A stretch of 64,000 nucleotides of DNA from the IMG/VR virus record IMGVR_UViG_3300032236_001858; one strand, written 5' to 3'. Source of the DNA: a virus. Its lineage: Duplodnaviria; Heunggongvirae; Uroviricota; Caudoviricetes. Made by a program: the position numbers and the translations under genes. A model generated the notes under the pieces. It saw only the letters and a list, made by a program, of their open reading frames with translations. It was not told the origin of the DNA and did not search any database. Position 1 is the stretch's first letter. Each line of letters begins with the position of its first letter. Shown here one piece after another: positions 6,821-39,997 of the stretch.

Positions 6821-6898
6821 ATGACAACTATTACTAACATAGCGTATTATTATGAGGGAGAGCGTAGCTCAAACGTCAGACTAATGTCTATGTCGTAA
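6821..6898 (+). CDS. attenuator leader peptide A (Tyr/Glu): MTTITNIAYYYEGERSSNVRLMSMS
   Basis: TAT TAT TAT GAG GGA GAG run; GTCAGACT (6875-6882) is complementary to the terminator 5' arm. Confidence 0.85.
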   Translation: MTTITNIAYYYEGERSSNVRLMSMS

Positions 6899-6920
6899 TG
6901 GTTTCATTATGATATTTTCT

Positions 6921-6956
6921 AACCCAGTCTGACTTTCAGACTGGGTTTTTTGTTTT
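6921..6956 (+). terminator. attenuator terminator A
   Basis: AACCCAGTCTGA-CTT-TCAGACTGGGTT + T tract. Confidence 0.9.
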
Positions 6957-6966
6957 AAAATAAATT

Positions 6967-7136: not shown

Positions 7137-7222
7137 GCTACGGTATGCAAACCGGAATAAGCGACCAGACTTTCAATCTGGACATCGAAAGATGTGTGCG
7201 GGTTCGAGCCCCGTCCGTAGTA
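7137..7222 (+). tRNA. tRNA with TTC anticodon and long variable arm (class II-like body)
   Basis: CCAGA-CT TTC AA-TCTGG; V-arm ACATC-GAAA-GATGT; A73. Confidence 0.75.
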
Positions 7223-7229
7223 CAAATAA

Positions 7230-7996: not shown

Positions 7997-8061
7997 CAAA
8001 AATAAAAAAAATTAAAAGGGAAGACAAAACTTTTTATATATACATTAATATAATTAAAACG

Positions 8062-8142
8062 ATGAAAAATTTAACTAACATATCAACAGCAATCATAGGA
8101 GGCGGCGCGGGAGCGAATGTCACTGGCTGGACTATGTTATAA
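8062..8142 (+). CDS. attenuator leader peptide B (Gly/Ala/Ile): MKNLTNISTAIIGGGAGANVTGWTML
   Basis: ATC ATA GGA GGC GGC GCG GGA GCG run; TCACTGGCTGG (8120-8130) pairs 11 bp with the terminator 5' arm. Confidence 0.87.
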   Translation: MKNLTNISTAIIGGGAGANVTGWTML

Positions 8143-8166
8143 TCTTTCATCAAAAGAATTAAACGT

Positions 8167-8200
8167 AACCCAGTCAGTGAAAATTGACTGGGTTTTTTTA
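8167..8200 (+). terminator. attenuator terminator B
   Basis: AACCCAGTCA-GTGAAAAT-TGACTGGGTT + T tract. Confidence 0.9.
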
Positions 8201-8203
8201 TTT

Positions 8204-8287
8204 CGGCAGGTACCGATGGTGTCTTATACACACTATAACCGTAGCGGGAAGTTGAAAACGTGGGTTCGAATCCCACCCTGCCGACCA
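8204..8287 (+). ncRNA. D-armless tRNA-like RNA, anticodon TAT
   Basis: Acceptor CGGCAGG/CCTGCCG-A-CCA, canonical T arm, GGTGT-CT TAT AC-ACACT, only 7 nt where the D arm should be. Confidence 0.7.
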
Positions 8288-8427: not shown

Positions 8428-8502
8428 GGGGTCACATGTACCAAGGCTAGGCGATGATGCTTTGCAAGCATCGTGTGGTGAGTTCGATTCTCACTGGCTC
8501 CA
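8428..8502 (+). tRNA. tRNA-Ala (TGC)
   Basis: GATGC-TT TGC AA-GCATC; G3:U70. Confidence 0.85.
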
Positions 8503-8521
8503 CAAAAAATGAATAGTAAAA

Positions 8522-8767: not shown

Positions 8768-8809
8768 ATATGCCGGATGATCCACCGTTGAATCGCGGTG
8801 CCGGCTCCA

Positions 8810-8883
8810 GGGGAATTAGCTCATTTGGCTAGAGCGCTTGTCTGGCAGACAAGAGGTGACGAGTTCAAATCTCGTATTCTCCA
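8810..8883 (+). tRNA. tRNA-Ala (GGC)
   Basis: CTTGT-CT GGC AG-ACAAG; G3:U70. Confidence 0.9.
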
Positions 8884-9120: not shown

Positions 9121-9190
9121 GGGCCAGATGCCAACGGCAGGTCAACTCGCTTGCACCGAGATTGTTTGGGTTCGATTCCCACTGTGTCCA
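9121..9190 (+). tRNA. degenerate tRNA-Ala (TGC)
   Basis: CTCG-CT TGC AC-CGAG, G3:U70, bulged acceptor stem. Confidence 0.55.
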
Positions 9191-12726: not shown

Positions 12727-13545
12727 ATGAAAAACAAAGACTTCGGTGATCGTATGAAAATGTACGAAAACCAAACCTGCGGAATCAGATTGATTCCCAG
12801 AATTCCGGTAATTGCTCGCCTTGATGGAAAAGGCTTTTCCAAATTCACTAAAGGTCTTAAAAGACCGTATGATGAAAGATTATCACGTTTGATGGCTGAA
12901 ACAACTAAGTATTTAGTTAAAGAAACTAATGCTAATTGTGGATATACTCAATCAGATGAAATTACTTTAATGTGGTACACTGATAAGATTGATGCTTCAA
13001 TTTACTTTGATGGTCGTCTTTTCAAAATGTTATCTGATCTTTCAGCAATGGCTTCTGTATTTTTTAACAGAAAACTTAGTGAATATCTTCCAGAAAAGTC
13101 TGACAAGATGCCAAGGTTTGACTGTAGAGTTTACAATGTACCTACTTTAGATGAGGCTATGAATTCATTCCTTTGGAGAGAACAAGATGCTACTAAGAAC
13201 TCAATTACTATGGCGGCTTCTGCTTATTACTCTCACAAAGAGTTAATGAATAAGAATGGATCTGAAAAACAAGAAATGCTTTTTCAAAAAGGTGTTAATT
13301 GGAATGATTATCCAACTTTTTTCAAAAGAGGTTCTTATGTACAAAGAAAAAGAGTTTTAACTCCTTTCACTGCTGAAGAAATTGAAAGATTACCAGCTAA
13401 ACACAATGCTAGAAAAGACCCTAGTATGTTAATTGAAAGATGGGTTATTGATGTAGTTGAACTACCTAAATTATCAAGTATTGAAAACTCAGTTGAAGTT
13501 ATTGTATTTGGTGAAGAACCTAAACTAAAAAGTCCAGTTATTTAA
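12727..13545 (+). CDS. thg1: tRNA-His guanylyltransferase Thg1-like protein
   Basis: ARLDGKGFSKFT, YTQSDEITL, PRFDCR, WREQDATKNS. Confidence 0.92.
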   Translation: MKNKDFGDRMKMYENQTCGIRLIPRIPVIARLDGKGFSKFTKGLKRPYDERLSRLMAETTKYLVKETNANCGYTQSDEITLMWYTDKIDASIYFDGRLFKMLSDLSAMASVFFNRKLSEYLPEKSDKMPRFDCRVYNVPTLDEAMNSFLWREQDATKNSITMAASAYYSHKELMNKNGSEKQEMLFQKGVNWNDYPTFFKRGSYVQRKRVLTPFTAEEIERLPAKHNARKDPSMLIERWVIDVVELPKLSSIENSVEVIVFGEEPKLKSPVI

Positions 13546-31291: not shown

Positions 31292-31376
31292 TGGTAGGTA
31301 CCCGAGCGGTCTTCAGGGACTAGTCTGATATACTAGGTGAGAAATCACGACGTGGGTTCAAATCCCACCCTACCAA
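31292..31376 (+). tRNA. tRNA-Ile (GAT) with long variable arm
   Basis: CTAGT-CT GAT AT-ACTAG; V-arm GTGA-GAAA-TCAC. Confidence 0.8.
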
Positions 31377-31382
31377 CAACAT

Positions 31383-31460: not shown

Positions 31461-31539
31461 GCCTCAGTAGCCGAGGTCGCCTTCTAAGCGACTAATCGTA
31501 ACGGAACTGAAAATGTAGGTTCGAATCCTACCTGGGGTA
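31461..31539 (+). ncRNA. D-armless tRNA-like RNA, anticodon TCT
   Basis: GCCTCAG/CTGGGGT-A, GTCGC-CT TCT AA-GCGAC, canonical T arm, 8 nt in place of the D arm. Confidence 0.7.
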
Positions 31540-31594
31540 CAAAAAAAAGGGACACTAGTCTTATTAATATATAAGTAAAATGTAGGTTTGTATT

Positions 31595-32521: not shown

Positions 32522-32607
32522 TGATAGGTTGCCGTAGTGGCCGAACGGTCCGGACTGTTAATCCGGTGACGAATAGTCCATCGTGGGTTCGAATCCCACC
32601 CTGTCAG
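32522..32607 (+). tRNA. tRNA-Asn (GTT) with long variable arm
   Basis: CCGGA-CT GTT AA-TCCGG; V-arm GAC-GAATA-GTC; U1:A72, G73. Confidence 0.82.
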
Positions 32608-32614
32608 CAAATAT

Positions 32615-33959: not shown

Positions 33960-34241
33960 ATGGAAAAGATTATCGACATCGTTAGAGATAACGTTGCAAG
34001 ATTCGACTGGGCTTCTGAAGGAGTCCTCTACTACAAAGTAGAAACTGAAAAATATATCTATCACTTCCCAGTAGATATGAATAACAAAGAAGATGTGGGA
34101 ACAGCTAATTTTGAATCAGAACATAAGGCTATAAATCTTATGAGATATTTAAGAAAAGCATCAGAAAACTTAGAAAAAATTAAAAACGATTCAGGTACGC
34201 CTGATTGGAAAAAGACATTAAGAGTTACACAAAAAGTATGA
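33960..34241 (+). CDS. hypothetical protein
   Basis: 93-aa ORF coupled (ATGA) to LeuRS. Confidence 0.7.
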   Translation: MEKIIDIVRDNVARFDWASEGVLYYKVETEKYIYHFPVDMNNKEDVGTANFESEHKAINLMRYLRKASENLEKIKNDSGTPDWKKTLRVTQKV

Positions 34242-35503
34242 AAGATGAAAAGTATATATGCGTTATGTTTCCTTACCCAAGTGGTTCGGGATTGCATGTA
34301 GGTCACTTTTATAATTATGCTATAATTGATTCTTATTGTAGATACTTTAAATACAAAGGTCAACAAGTTTTTCAACCTTTTGGTTATGATGCCTTTGGTT
34401 TGCCGGCTGAAAACTATGCTAGAAAAGTAGGTCGTGATGCTAAAGATGTTACCTATGAAAACATCAGTCAATTTAGAAAACAGATGGAAAAGATGGATAC
34501 CAACTATCAAGAAATGTTGGTAACATCTGATCCTTCTTATCAAAAATGGACACAATGGTTGTTTTTGAAATTGAAAGAACATGGCTTGGCTTATAAAAAA
34601 GATGGTGAAGTAAATTGGTGTCCTTCTTGTGAAACCGTATTGGCTCGTGAACAAGTTAAATCTGATTGTTGTGAAAGATGTTCAACTAAGGTAGAAATGA
34701 AAACAATGAATCAGTGGTACTTTAAGATTACTGATTATAAAGAACGTTTGATTAAAAACTTGGATTGGATAGATTATCCAAAATCAACTATTAACGCGCA
34801 AAGAATGTGGTTGGAAAACTTGCACGATTGGTGTGTTTCTCGTCAAAGAAAATGGGGCTGTCCAATTCCAATAGAAGGTGAAACCGATACAATGGATACA
34901 TTTGTAGATTCTTCATTTTACTATGTTAGATATTGTGATGCTACTAATGATAATGAATTGTGTGCTAAAGATAAATATAAACAAGTAGATGTTTATGTTG
35001 GTGGTAATGAACACGCTTGTATGCACTTGATTTATGCTCGTTTTATTAATATGTTTTTGTATGATATTGGTGTTGTTTCAGAGGAAGAACCATTTAAGAA
35101 AGTTATACATCAAGGTATAATTTTGAACGAAGGTGAAAAAATGTCTAAAACAAAAGGTAATGTTATTAATCCAGATGATTATGACTCTGATGAATTGAGA
35201 TTTTATATGATGTTTATTGGTCATTATTTTGATGGTGGTTCTTGGTCTGACCAAAATATAGCTGGTATTAAAAGATTTATTAGTCGTTTTAAGGAGTGGA
35301 TGTCAAGAGAAGGTTCTGATACTTTTGATATTGAATCATTTAAGAAAAAAATATTTAACTACACTGAGAGTTTTAAGTTTAATAAAGTTGTTAGTGAGTT
35401 TATGACAATAGTTAATCAAAATAGAACTAAAAACATAACACCTGAGATAAAAAAAGAATTGATTGAATTGATTAAGGTGTATATGCCTGGAATTAAAATT
35501 TAA
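34238..35503 (+). CDS. leuS: minimal leucyl-tRNA synthetase (421 aa)
   Basis: MFPYPSG..LHVGH, GYDAFGLPAEN, Zn knuckle CPSC/CERC, DWCVSRQRKWG, MDTFVDSSFY, GGNEHA, KMSKT. Confidence 0.9.
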   Translation: MKDEKYICVMFPYPSGSGLHVGHFYNYAIIDSYCRYFKYKGQQVFQPFGYDAFGLPAENYARKVGRDAKDVTYENISQFRKQMEKMDTNYQEMLVTSDPSYQKWTQWLFLKLKEHGLAYKKDGEVNWCPSCETVLAREQVKSDCCERCSTKVEMKTMNQWYFKITDYKERLIKNLDWIDYPKSTINAQRMWLENLHDWCVSRQRKWGCPIPIEGETDTMDTFVDSSFYYVRYCDATNDNELCAKDKYKQVDVYVGGNEHACMHLIYARFINMFLYDIGVVSEEEPFKKVIHQGIILNEGEKMSKTKGNVINPDDYDSDELRFYMMFIGHYFDGGSWSDQNIAGIKRFISRFKEWMSREGSDTFDIESFKKKIFNYTESFKFNKVVSEFMTIVNQNRTKNITPEIKKELIELIKVYMPGIKI

Positions 35504-38345: not shown

Positions 38346-38377
38346 TAAATTTATATTAAAAAATAATATATATGGAC

Positions 38378-39997
38378 ATGAAATACATTAAAACTAGAAA
38401 TAGATTTCTTGCTGAATCAAAAGGTGAAATGAGCGACAACGCTCTTCATACACTTGCGACTCATGATGATGGACAATCTCCTGATGTTCAAAAAAGTTTG
38501 GATGCACTTGACGAGGTTTCTCCTAAAGGTAAAGTGGTAACTCGTTTTGCTCCTTCACCAACAGGATTTTTACATATCGGAGGTGTTCGTACAGCTCTTT
38601 ACAACTACTTGTTTGCTAAAAAACACGGTGGTATCTTTTATGTTCGTATTGAAGATACTGACCAAAAACGTTTTGTAGGCGATGCTGAAAAATATATTCA
38701 AGACGCTTTAGAATGGTGTGGTATTGACCCAGATTATGCACCTTGGAAAGGTGGTCCTAATGGACCTTACCGCCAATCGGAAAGAGATTATTCTGGTCAT
38801 ATTCAAACTCTTTTAGATAAGGGTATGGCTTACTATGCTTTTGATACAGAAGATGATATGGTTAAAGTAAGAGCTGAAAATGCTCACTTTGCTTACGATA
38901 CTAAAACTCGTATGTCAATGAAGAACTCACTCTCTTTATCTAAAGAAGAAGTTGATGCACTTCTTGCTGCTAATACTCCATTTGTAATTCGCTTCAAAAC
39001 ACCAGAAAATAGAACTATCACCGTTAATGATGTAATTCGTGGTGAAGTTAGTTTGAATACAAATCAAACTGATGATAAAGTTTTGGTTAAATCAAATGGT
39101 ATTCCTACATATCATATGGCTAACGTATGTGACGACCACGATATGGGAACTACTCACGTTATTCGTGGTGAAGAATGGTTGCCTTCAACTCCACTTCACT
39201 TAATGTTATATGAAGCATTTGGTTGGGAAGCTCCTACATTTGCTCACCTACCTCTAATTTTGAATCCTGATGGTAAAGGTAAGTTGTCTAAACGTAAAGC
39301 TTTAGCTTTAGGTATTCCAGCTTTCCCAATGGGTGGTGAAGGTGAAGATGATAAAGGTCAAAAAGTAAAGTATCTTGGTTTCAAAGATGAAGGTTTTGAA
39401 CCACAAGCTATGTTGAATTTCTTGGTGCTTTTAGGTTGGTCCCCAACAGATACTCAAGAACTTATGACTATGGCTGACATGATTTCTAAATTTGACTTAG
39501 CTCATGTTCATAAGGCTGGTGCTCGTTTTGATGTTGAAAAAGCTAAACACTTTAATGCTCAACACTTGAACACTTATAGAAGTGATGAAGAAATTCTTTC
39601 ACATATTGATATGGGTGATACCTATCATTACTCACCAGAAAATCTTTCTAAGATTGTGGATATCTGTAAAAAGAGAGCAGTCTTTACTAAAGATTTACAA
39701 GCTGTTGCTGATATCTTCTTTAAGCCAATTGTGATTAAAGAAACAGATGTTAAGTTATTAACTGATGATTACAAAAAAGTATTCTCAGTTTTTGTAACTA
39801 AGTCAATTGATTGGACGGCTGAAACTATTAAACAAACAATTCACGACATTTGTCAAGAAATAGGTGTTAAAATGGGTAAGATAATGCCTGCTTTAAGATT
39901 GGCTATTGCTGGTGGATTACCAGGTCCAGATTTGGCAACAACAATGGAAATAATTGGTAGGGATGAAACCTTAATAAGAATTAAAAACACTTTATAA
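38378..39997 (+). CDS. gltX: glutamyl-tRNA synthetase with N-terminal tag extension
   Basis: TRFAPSPTGFLHIGG, RIEDTD, PTYH, HVIRGEEW, KLSKR; start at MKYIKT is 5 nt after a TAATATATA box. Confidence 0.93.
   Translation: MKYIKTRNRFLAESKGEMSDNALHTLATHDDGQSPDVQKSLDALDEVSPKGKVVTRFAPSPTGFLHIGGVRTALYNYLFAKKHGGIFYVRIEDTDQKRFVGDAEKYIQDALEWCGIDPDYAPWKGGPNGPYRQSERDYSGHIQTLLDKGMAYYAFDTEDDMVKVRAENAHFAYDTKTRMSMKNSLSLSKEEVDALLAANTPFVIRFKTPENRTITVNDVIRGEVSLNTNQTDDKVLVKSNGIPTYHMANVCDDHDMGTTHVIRGEEWLPSTPLHLMLYEAFGWEAPTFAHLPLILNPDGKGKLSKRKALALGIPAFPMGGEGEDDKGQKVKYLGFKDEGFEPQAMLNFLVLLGWSPTDTQELMTMADMISKFDLAHVHKAGARFDVEKAKHFNAQHLNTYRSDEEILSHIDMGDTYHYSPENLSKIVDICKKRAVFTKDLQAVADIFFKPIVIKETDVKLLTDDYKKVFSVFVTKSIDWTAETIKQTIHDICQEIGVKMGKIMPALRLAIAGGLPGPDLATTMEIIGRDETLIRIKNTL

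What the first reader, a model, noticed from the sequence alone, without database searches (positions are those of the whole stretch)
8204..8287. D-armless tRNA-like RNA with a UAU anticodon
It has a perfect acceptor stem with encoded CCA, a canonical T arm and a 7-nt anticodon loop. Only TACCGAT sits where the D arm should be, and the variable region is 25 nt. Bacteria normally read AUA with lysidine-modified CAU, so UAU is itself unusual. D-armless tRNAs are known mainly from mitochondria. It is the first gene after terminator B, whose leader uses ATA.
Basis: partly seen in the sequence, partly recalled or inferred. Interest (0 to 1): 0.75.

Follow-up and report, generated by a model that had tools for sequence, protein, structure and literature searches.

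The report
Phage isoleucine tRNA with rewired core
This giant-phage gene looks D-armless but most likely is a working tRNA for the isoleucine codon AUA whose D-stem strand and D-loop come after the anticodon arm instead of before it, a layout found in over a hundred phage and bacterial contigs and in no paper I could search, and in close relatives an ordinary tRNA with the same anticodon fills the very same slot.

Summary
The gene at 8204-8287 is real, but 'D-armless' is the wrong reading. Its 7-nt linker is the 3' D-stem strand, and its 25-nt 'variable region' holds the 5' D-stem strand and a D-loop. I found 157 distinct genes of this layout on 119 contigs (Ile, Arg, Met anticodons). The linker pairs with the downstream strand by compensatory changes (134/135 and 124/135; shuffled about 58 and 54). 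The 15:48 Levitt pair covaries (153/157). Position 20 follows the amino acid as in ordinary tRNAs: A in 36/36 Arg, U in 108/121 Ile/Met. In 13 of 14 related operons behind the same ATA-containing leader the first tRNA has UAU: 8 ordinary, 5 rewired. Two near-identical operons differ in just this. So it is probably an AUA-reading tRNA-Ile, charged by host IleRS (the phage has no IleRS or TilS). Not shown: expression, charging, decoding, 3D fold. This copy has one D-stem mismatch. UAU alone is known. The scan noted this class before on other DNA; one check of that claim fell in part, and I could not see which part.

The parts
8204..8287 (+). whole rewired tRNA-Ile(UAU) gene with encoded CCA
8204..8210 (+). 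acceptor stem 5' strand (pairs with 8277-8283; has C4-G69)
8211..8217 (+). 7-nt linker read as U8, A21-like, and positions 22-26; 8214-8216 are the 3' D-stem strand (23-25)
   Evidence: covariation with 8239-8241; the numbering of the A and of 22 is inference
8218..8234 (+). anticodon arm, anticodon TAT at 8225-8227, A37 at 8228
   Evidence: stem replaced wholesale in the closest orthologue L418
8235..8238 (+). connector (44, 45 and on) leading back to the D-stem strand
   Evidence: 3-5 nt in most homologues
8239..8243 (+). displaced 5' D-stem strand (10-12) plus U13 A14; G12-C23 and C11-G24 pair, C10-A25 is a mismatch in this copy
8244..8248 (+). displaced D-loop: G15, C16, G18 G19, G20
8249..8259 (+). 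tail from D-loop to T stem with a GNRA-like turn (GAAA), ending in C48, the Levitt partner of G15
   Evidence: 15:48 covariation; GNRA-like in 58 of 69 short tails
8260..8276 (+). T arm
8277..8287 (+). acceptor 3' strand, A73, CCA
8062..8142 (+). 26-codon leader ORF with ATA at codons 7 and 12 and a Gly/Ala run; conserved in 15 related operons
8120..8130 (+). antiterminator strand, can pair with the terminator's 5' arm
   Evidence: predicted
8167..8200 (+). intrinsic terminator directly ahead of the gene
31461..31542 (+). second gene of the same rewired layout in this genome, anticodon UCU (Arg), A20
   Evidence: 62.8 bits with a model built from Ile-type genes only

Best explanation
It is a working elongator tRNA-Ile for the codon AUA, built with two internal blocks in swapped order. 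Chain order: acceptor 5' strand and U8, then the 3' D-stem strand (21-26), anticodon arm, a short connector, the 5' D-stem strand (10-13), the D-loop (14-20), a short turn, position 48, T arm, acceptor 3' strand. The D stem is thus a helix that encloses the anticodon arm rather than a hairpin, while the core contacts (U8-A14, 15:48, G18/G19 with the T loop) are kept, so the L shape should be ordinary. Shown by comparison: the stems, D-stem pairs 11:24 and 10:25, pair 15:48, the link of position 20 to the amino acid, and exchange with an ordinary tRNA(UAU) at this slot. Inferred: transcription when ribosomes stall on the leader's ATA/Gly/Ala codons and the terminator is read through; 5' cutting by host RNase P; charging by host IleRS; reading of AUA by U34 without TilS; L-shaped fold; U8-A14 and G18/G19 contacts.
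For: Family: 157 distinct genes on 119 contigs; 157 of 164 short-linker tRNA-like genes have the core although the parse did not ask for it. Pairing 11:24 in 134/135 (shuffled mean 58, max 77), 10:25 in 124/135 (54, max 74). 15:48 is A-T or G-C in 133/136 (shuffled 79.9) and 153/157. Between nearest neighbours both partners change together: 15:48 14 times against 2 single changes, 11:24 15 against 1, 10:25 16 against 6. Position 20: A in 36/36 Arg-type, U in 108/121 Ile/Met-type; ordinary tRNAs of the same loci give A in 113/114 Arg and U in 86/93 Ile/Met; A20 is the main ArgRS determinant (PMC9976931). A73 in 101/101 UAU genes. Same slot: first tRNA behind this leader is UAU in 13 of 14 operons, 8 ordinary and 5 rewired; L416 (rewired) and L417 (ordinary) have nearly identical flanks. 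ATA is 34% of Ile codons in this phage. [quoted passage not shown]
Against: No expression, charging or decoding data were obtained. In this copy C10-A25 is mismatched (the orthologue L418 has U10-A25), position 20 is G, and the E. coli determinants A38, C29-G41 and U12-A23 are absent. The energy model gives the swapped D pairs only 0.02 probability in this sequence and prefers a local hairpin (0.5); it ignores tertiary contacts. E. coli IleRS charges UAU-tRNA 360-fold worse than lysidine-tRNA and UAU binds AUG on E. coli ribosomes (PMC3575796); IleRS2 reads the anticodon more strictly than IleRS1, and Bacteroidota carriers have long, probably type 2, enzymes (1122-1163-aa frames; type inferred from length). 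The sample is biased to UAU and UCU by my search patterns, homologues are related, and the 13 operons reduce to about nine distinct ones. L111 carries both forms in one cluster.
Confidence: 0.74

Rival explanations
1. Same rewired fold, but the RNA is a non-decoding mimic: a decoy for host tRNA-cutting defence nucleases or a ligand for synthetases or other tRNA-binding proteins.
For: This genome holds many odd tRNA-like RNAs; UAU is a poor substrate for E. coli IleRS; L111 keeps both forms.
Against: It stands in for an ordinary tRNA(UAU) at the same slot; A73, a 7-nt loop with U33 and A37, the 12-bp acceptor-T helix and amino-acid-specific position 20 are all kept; anticodons are limited to sense Ile, Met and Arg codons.
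Confidence: 0.12
2. The family is functional but this copy is decaying.
For: C10-A25 mismatch and G20; weak predicted D stem.
Against: All other stems perfect; the same mismatch occurs in L274; G20 is shared with orthologues L418/L419 and others; it is the only UAU gene found in the genome.
Confidence: 0.06
3. A truly D-armless tRNA as in animal mitochondria: the linker is an unstructured replacement loop and the 25 nt form a variable arm.
For: No D hairpin exists; minimum-energy fold shows a 3-bp hairpin in the 25-nt region.
Against: The linker covaries with the downstream strand and 15 with 48. The local hairpin needs position 11 to pair with invariant G18, impossible in the 53 of 135 homologues with G or A there.
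Confidence: 0.04
4. The gene is a scrambled precursor that is cut and re-ligated into a normal cloverleaf, like permuted tRNA genes of Cyanidioschyzon (from my own knowledge).
For: Reordering the two blocks in silico gives a tRNA-Ile(UAU) that ARAGORN accepts.
Against: Swapping two internal blocks needs three cuts and three ligations and is not a circular permutation; acceptor 5' and 3' ends are already in normal order; connector and tail lengths vary freely, which fits a fold used as transcribed.
Confidence: 0.03
5. A tRNA gene fragment, integration relic or tmRNA piece.
For: Weak Rfam tmRNA match, 21.5 bits against a cut-off of 47; tRNA fragments are common (PMC9897764, abstract only).
Against: Complete acceptor, anticodon and T arms with compensatory changes across 119 contigs; no G3-U70 and no tag frame.
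Confidence: 0.01

Closest known systems
Ordinary bacterial and phage elongator tRNA (Rfam RF00005), in particular tRNA-Ile(UAU) at the same slot in LR745206.1, LR756502.1, L409 and L417
   Same: 7-bp acceptor, 5-bp T and anticodon stems, 7-nt loops, U8, A14, R15:Y48, G18G19, A73, amino-acid-linked position 20, anticodon, genomic slot
   Different: D stem is not a hairpin; blocks 9-20 and 21-45 are in swapped order; not called by ARAGORN (0 of 135 with the right anticodon); Rfam misses this copy and scores some others weakly (31-37 bits)
tRNA-Ile2(UAU) of Mycoplasma mobile (PMC3575796) and the U34 suppressor tRNA of tilS-less Bacillus subtilis (PMC3919564)
   Same: UAU anticodon, AUA decoding without lysidine
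   Different: Those are cloverleaves in tilS-less cells; here the gene is phage-borne, and four Bacteroidota genomes carrying the rewired UAU gene all keep tilS
D-armless mitochondrial tRNA-Ser(AGY) of animals
   Same: short linker between acceptor and anticodon arms, no D hairpin
   Different: those lose the D-domain contacts and are short (own knowledge; PMC10424219 lists them as the exceptions); here D stem, D-loop motif and Levitt pair are kept and the T arm is canonical
Permuted tRNA genes (Cyanidioschyzon) and allo-tRNAs / 8-4 tRNAs (Mukai et al., PMC5389517)
   Same: non-standard tRNA gene layouts; some 8/4 forms are phage-borne
   Different: permuted genes swap whole halves and mature into cloverleaves (own knowledge); allo-tRNAs change stem lengths and keep the cloverleaf order; this gene is 7/5 with changed internal order
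tmRNA tRNA-like domain and YrlA Y RNAs
   Same: tRNA elbow made with a non-cloverleaf chain path
   Different: tmRNA has no D stem or anticodon and has G3-U70; YrlA lacks a free CCA acceptor end (own knowledge); this gene has anticodon, D-stem pairs and CCA

Membership tests
Canonical cloverleaf tRNA (RF00005) | 7-bp acceptor, discriminator, CCA | tested here: met
Canonical cloverleaf tRNA (RF00005) | 5-bp T stem with 7-nt TTCRANY loop | tested here: met
Canonical cloverleaf tRNA (RF00005) | 5-bp anticodon stem, 7-nt loop with Y32 U33 R37 | tested here: met
Canonical cloverleaf tRNA (RF00005) | D hairpin between acceptor and anticodon arms | tested here: not met
   7-nt linker only; no ARAGORN or RF00005 call
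Canonical cloverleaf tRNA (RF00005) | core contacts 15:48 and D-stem pairs | tested here: met
   covariation in the family; this copy has G15-C48 and two of three D pairs
Canonical cloverleaf tRNA (RF00005) | L-shaped fold, aminoacylation, ribosomal decoding | not testable with these tools
   needs structure and biochemistry
Bacterial tRNA-Ile identity set (PMC9976931 Table 1) | A73, C4-G69, A35, U36, A37 | tested here: met
   sequence
Bacterial tRNA-Ile identity set (PMC9976931 Table 1) | G34 or modified C34, A38, C29-G41, U12-A23, U20 | tested here: not met
   U34, C38, U29-A41, G12-C23, G20 here; ordinary phage Ile tRNAs also often lack A38 and C29-G41
Mitochondrial D-armless tRNA | loss of D stem and of D-loop tertiary partners | tested here: not met
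Permuted tRNA genes | 3' half encoded ahead of 5' half | tested here: not met
   acceptor 5' strand first, CCA last
Permuted tRNA genes | maturation by cutting and re-ligation | not testable with these tools
   no RNA reads cover the gene
allo-tRNA / 8-4 tRNA (PMC5389517) | 8/4 or 9/3 acceptor/T stems | tested here: not met
   7/5
tmRNA (RF00023) | G3-U70, tag reading frame, score over 47 bits | tested here: not met
   G3-C70, 21.5 bits

The most novel reading that the evidence does not exclude
A second, unannotated backbone topology for working tRNAs on ordinary bacterial ribosomes, interchangeable with the cloverleaf at the same gene slot, spread over phages of several phyla and some bacterial tRNA arrays, here supplying TilS-independent AUA decoding under control of an AUA-sensing leader.
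Probability: 0.68. Interest if true: 0.9.

Novelty: new variant of a known kind. Interest (0 to 1): 0.8.

Why it matters
Reviews name only mitochondrial and a few eukaryotic tRNAs as exceptions to the cloverleaf (PMC10424219; PMC7609411 has no such form). If these RNAs decode, synthetases, EF-Tu, RNase P and the ribosome read the tRNA's shape and not its chain path, which becomes testable with a natural molecule. Phage tRNA counts and codon analyses are then short of Ile and Arg genes, including in laboratory phages (phiCbK, Streptomyces Jay2Jay, Kehishuvirus tikkala, Vibrio D260) where GenBank shows nothing at these places. A changed core may also avoid host tRNA nucleases or modification needs (inference) and offers a new scaffold for engineered tRNAs. 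The UAU form bears on how AUA is told from AUG without lysidine.

Tried and rejected
Expression: one run search gave a single near-complete holder, probably the source sample; laying four runs gave contigs only. The one recorded RNA run covers a relative's leader (8026-8203) but not the gene; two runs that are probably DNA hold a close relative to 8237-8268. No evidence either way. In-silico reordering: 133/135 are then called by ARAGORN with the right anticodon, but 436/675 controls with the moved block shuffled are called too, so this test is weak. One search used a mis-indexed structure; one search is the corrected one. The first 14-mer scan was mostly chance hits, as was most of the genome scan (10 real genes among 120). 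Regex counts are lower bounds (one known gene in L111 was missed). Phage T5, whose tRNAs were tested as suppressors, has no gene of this layout in its tRNA region, so no old experiment could be borrowed. The C1-G72/A73 acceptor suggested tRNA-Pro identity; rejected because pair 1-72 varies freely in homologues. No promoter stood out above chance. The genome search gives no relatives for a virus record. Ten literature searches found no description; the library lacks most subscription papers. I could not check backbone geometry on a crystal structure.

Full report
Setting. The window lies in a 476,236-base virus record, 29.9% G+C, with 53 ARAGORN tRNAs in arrays, a Gp23-type capsid gene and a protein with a type IX secretion signal, which points to a Bacteroidota host (inference). 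The best public matches to this region are the huge phages LR745206.1 and LR756502.1.

Observation. ARAGORN and Rfam tRNA models do not call it. A pattern for this layout finds two genes in the genome, this one and a UCU gene at 31461-31542, and none in shuffles. A covariance model built from 18 Ile-type genes gives the UCU gene, which was not in the model, 62.8 bits, and no other tRNA of the genome more than 40.5.

Family. Pattern scans of viral contigs, genomes and metagenomes and a structural parse gave 157 distinct genes on 119 contigs: 101 UAU, 21 UCU, 15 GAU, 8 UCG, 5 ACG, 5 CAU, 2 CCU. UAU and UCU are inflated by my patterns; the others were met in passing. Cultured carriers, unannotated at these places in GenBank, are Streptomyces phage Jay2Jay and Kehishuvirus tikkala (Ile GAU), Vibrio phage D260 and Caulobacter phage phiCbK (Arg ACG). 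Ten bacterial contigs carry the UAU form, among them the isolates Chryseolinea sp. H1M3-3 and Chryseosolibacter histidini, in tRNA arrays; the four genomes tested keep tilS. Rfam RF00005 catches a few members weakly (31-37 bits), so they are not invisible to every tool.

The D domain is moved, not lost. Three bases of the linker pair with the three bases ahead of a fixed TA in the long region. Numbered as a D stem: 12:23 pairs in 134/135 (nearly invariant, so of little weight), 11:24 in 134/135 with four Watson-Crick types (shuffled mean 58, maximum 77), 10:25 in 124/135 (mean 54, maximum 74). After the TA come a purine, one to four bases and GG, the D-loop signature. That purine covaries with the last base before the T stem: A-T or G-C in 133/136 (shuffled 79.9, 0 of 10,000) and 153/157 in a parse that did not constrain the last base; this is the 15:48 Levitt pair. 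Relatedness inflates such counts, so I compared nearest neighbours: both partners changed together 14 times against 2 single changes for 15:48, 15 against 1 for 11:24, 16 against 6 for 10:25. On an 18-sequence alignment of this subtype 99.2% of cells pair and slid controls give 34-45%. The base after GG follows the amino acid: A in 36/36 Arg-type, U in 108/121 Ile/Met-type genes; ordinary tRNAs from the same loci give A in 113/114 and U in 86/93. A20 is the main ArgRS determinant and U20 is listed for Ile (PMC9976931). So the moved loop appears to sit where a synthetase meets a D-loop. The chain order is acceptor-U8, 21-26, anticodon arm, connector, 10-13, D-loop, turn, 48, T arm. Invariance of TA and GG was partly imposed by my patterns and is not counted; the 3D contacts of U8-A14 and G18/G19 are inferred.

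This copy. It has G12-C23, C11-G24, G15-C48 and a C10-A25 mismatch; the closest orthologue (L418/L419) shares acceptor, D-loop and T arm, has U10-A25, and has a fully replaced anticodon stem around the same loop. Position 20 is G in both. The energy model does not favour the swapped D pairs here (0.02) and prefers a small local hairpin (0.5); that hairpin cannot form in 53 of 135 homologues. It has A73, C4-G69, A35, U36, A37 but lacks A38, C29-G41 and U12-A23, which ordinary phage Ile tRNAs also often lack (A38 and C29-G41 tested).

Slot test. The gene follows a 26-codon leader with two ATA codons and a Gly/Ala run, an antiterminator and a terminator. I collected 15 operons with this leader. 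In 13 of the 14 that extend far enough the first tRNA has UAU: eight ordinary cloverleaves (four of them behind a protein gene) and five rewired; one starts with Gly. Near-duplicates reduce the 13 to about nine. L416 and L417 are almost identical through leader, terminator and the next Gly tRNA, yet carry the rewired and the ordinary form. One ATA was part of my search pattern; every leader has at least one more. This is the strongest sign that the two forms do the same job. L111 holds both forms in one cluster.

How it probably works. Stalling on the leader when AUA, Gly or Ala decoding is slow lets the antiterminator form (inference from known leader-peptide attenuators). Host RNase P cuts the 5' end; CCA is encoded. 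The genome has no IleRS or TilS match, so host IleRS must charge it. ATA makes up 34% of the phage's Ile codons (27.7 per thousand), and this is its only UAU gene. U34 tRNAs read AUA in M. mobile (PMC3575796) and in tilS-less B. subtilis with little AUG misreading (PMC3919564). Against easy acceptance: E. coli IleRS disfavours UAU 360-fold and E. coli ribosomes let UAU bind AUG; IleRS2 reads anticodons more strictly, though D-loop contacts are dispensable (PMC13752280). Some AUG misreading is possible. Why the rewired form is kept is open; escape from host tRNA-cutting enzymes is my best guess, untested.

Comparison and novelty. It works like an elongator tRNA but fails the cloverleaf test, and it is neither a mitochondrial D-armless tRNA, a permuted gene, an allo-tRNA nor tmRNA (membership table). 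Ten searches and look-ups in two reviews and the allo-tRNA paper found no description; the library is incomplete. I noted the swapped-core reading before consulting earlier scan notes; these report the same class on other DNA, mostly Arg, once Ile-UAU. They are not independent support, and one carries a remark that a check of the same claim fell in part, which I could not read. What this locus adds is the slot exchange behind an AUA-containing leader.

Verdict. Real and conserved rewired RNA: about 0.93. Working AUA-reading tRNA-Ile: about 0.74. New variant of a known kind. Interest 0.8.

Noticed in passing
window 31461-31542 +: Second rewired tRNA gene, anticodon UCU with A20; AGA is 79% of the phage's Arg codons.
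   Followed up: partly
window 34205-35503 +: 432-aa LeuRS-like protein (TIGR00396 399 bits, about half the normal length, apparently without the editing domain) right behind the Leu/Ile/Met/Val/Thr tRNA array.
   Followed up: partly
window 38372-39997 + and 12727-13545 +: Full GluRS (over TIGR00464 cut-off) and a Thg1-family tRNA-His guanylyltransferase.
   Followed up: no
window 8772-8810 +: Short element with acceptor-like stem, an inner hairpin and CCA, like a minihelix relic, inside the Gly/Ala array.
   Followed up: no
window 8428-8503 + and 9122-9190 +: Two UGC (Ala) tRNA-like genes with weak D arms, missed by ARAGORN in normal mode, Rfam 24 and 29 bits.
   Followed up: no
window 6821-6960 +: A second leader (Tyr/Glu-rich) plus terminator ahead of the Tyr/Glu tRNAs; same plan as the leader at 8062.
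   Followed up: no
window 31292-31377, 7137-7223, 32522-32608 +: Ile(GAU), Glu(UUC) and Asn(GUU) tRNAs with long variable arms, unusual for these amino acids.
   Followed up: no
L410, L414, L415, L420 (behind the leader terminator): A protein gene of about 250 codons sits between terminator and the first tRNA(UAU); a similar start is seen further down the L110 operon.
   Followed up: no
L181 2656-2753, L264 20-116, L401: GUA (Tyr) tRNA-like genes with short linker and long downstream region, possibly another rewired subtype.
   Followed up: no
L063 ~12880-12980 +: Truncated relative of the rewired gene that lacks the anticodon loop but keeps linker, tail and T arm.
   Followed up: no
L404 3525-3940 +: GOLLD RNA (177 bits) in Vibrio phage D260, overlapped by tiny hypothetical ORFs in the record.
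   Followed up: no
L417 and L409 first tRNA: The ordinary UAU tRNA has an unusual T loop (ATCGTTA) and an anticodon arm almost identical to that of the rewired gene in the window, suggesting arms are exchanged between bodies.
   Followed up: partly
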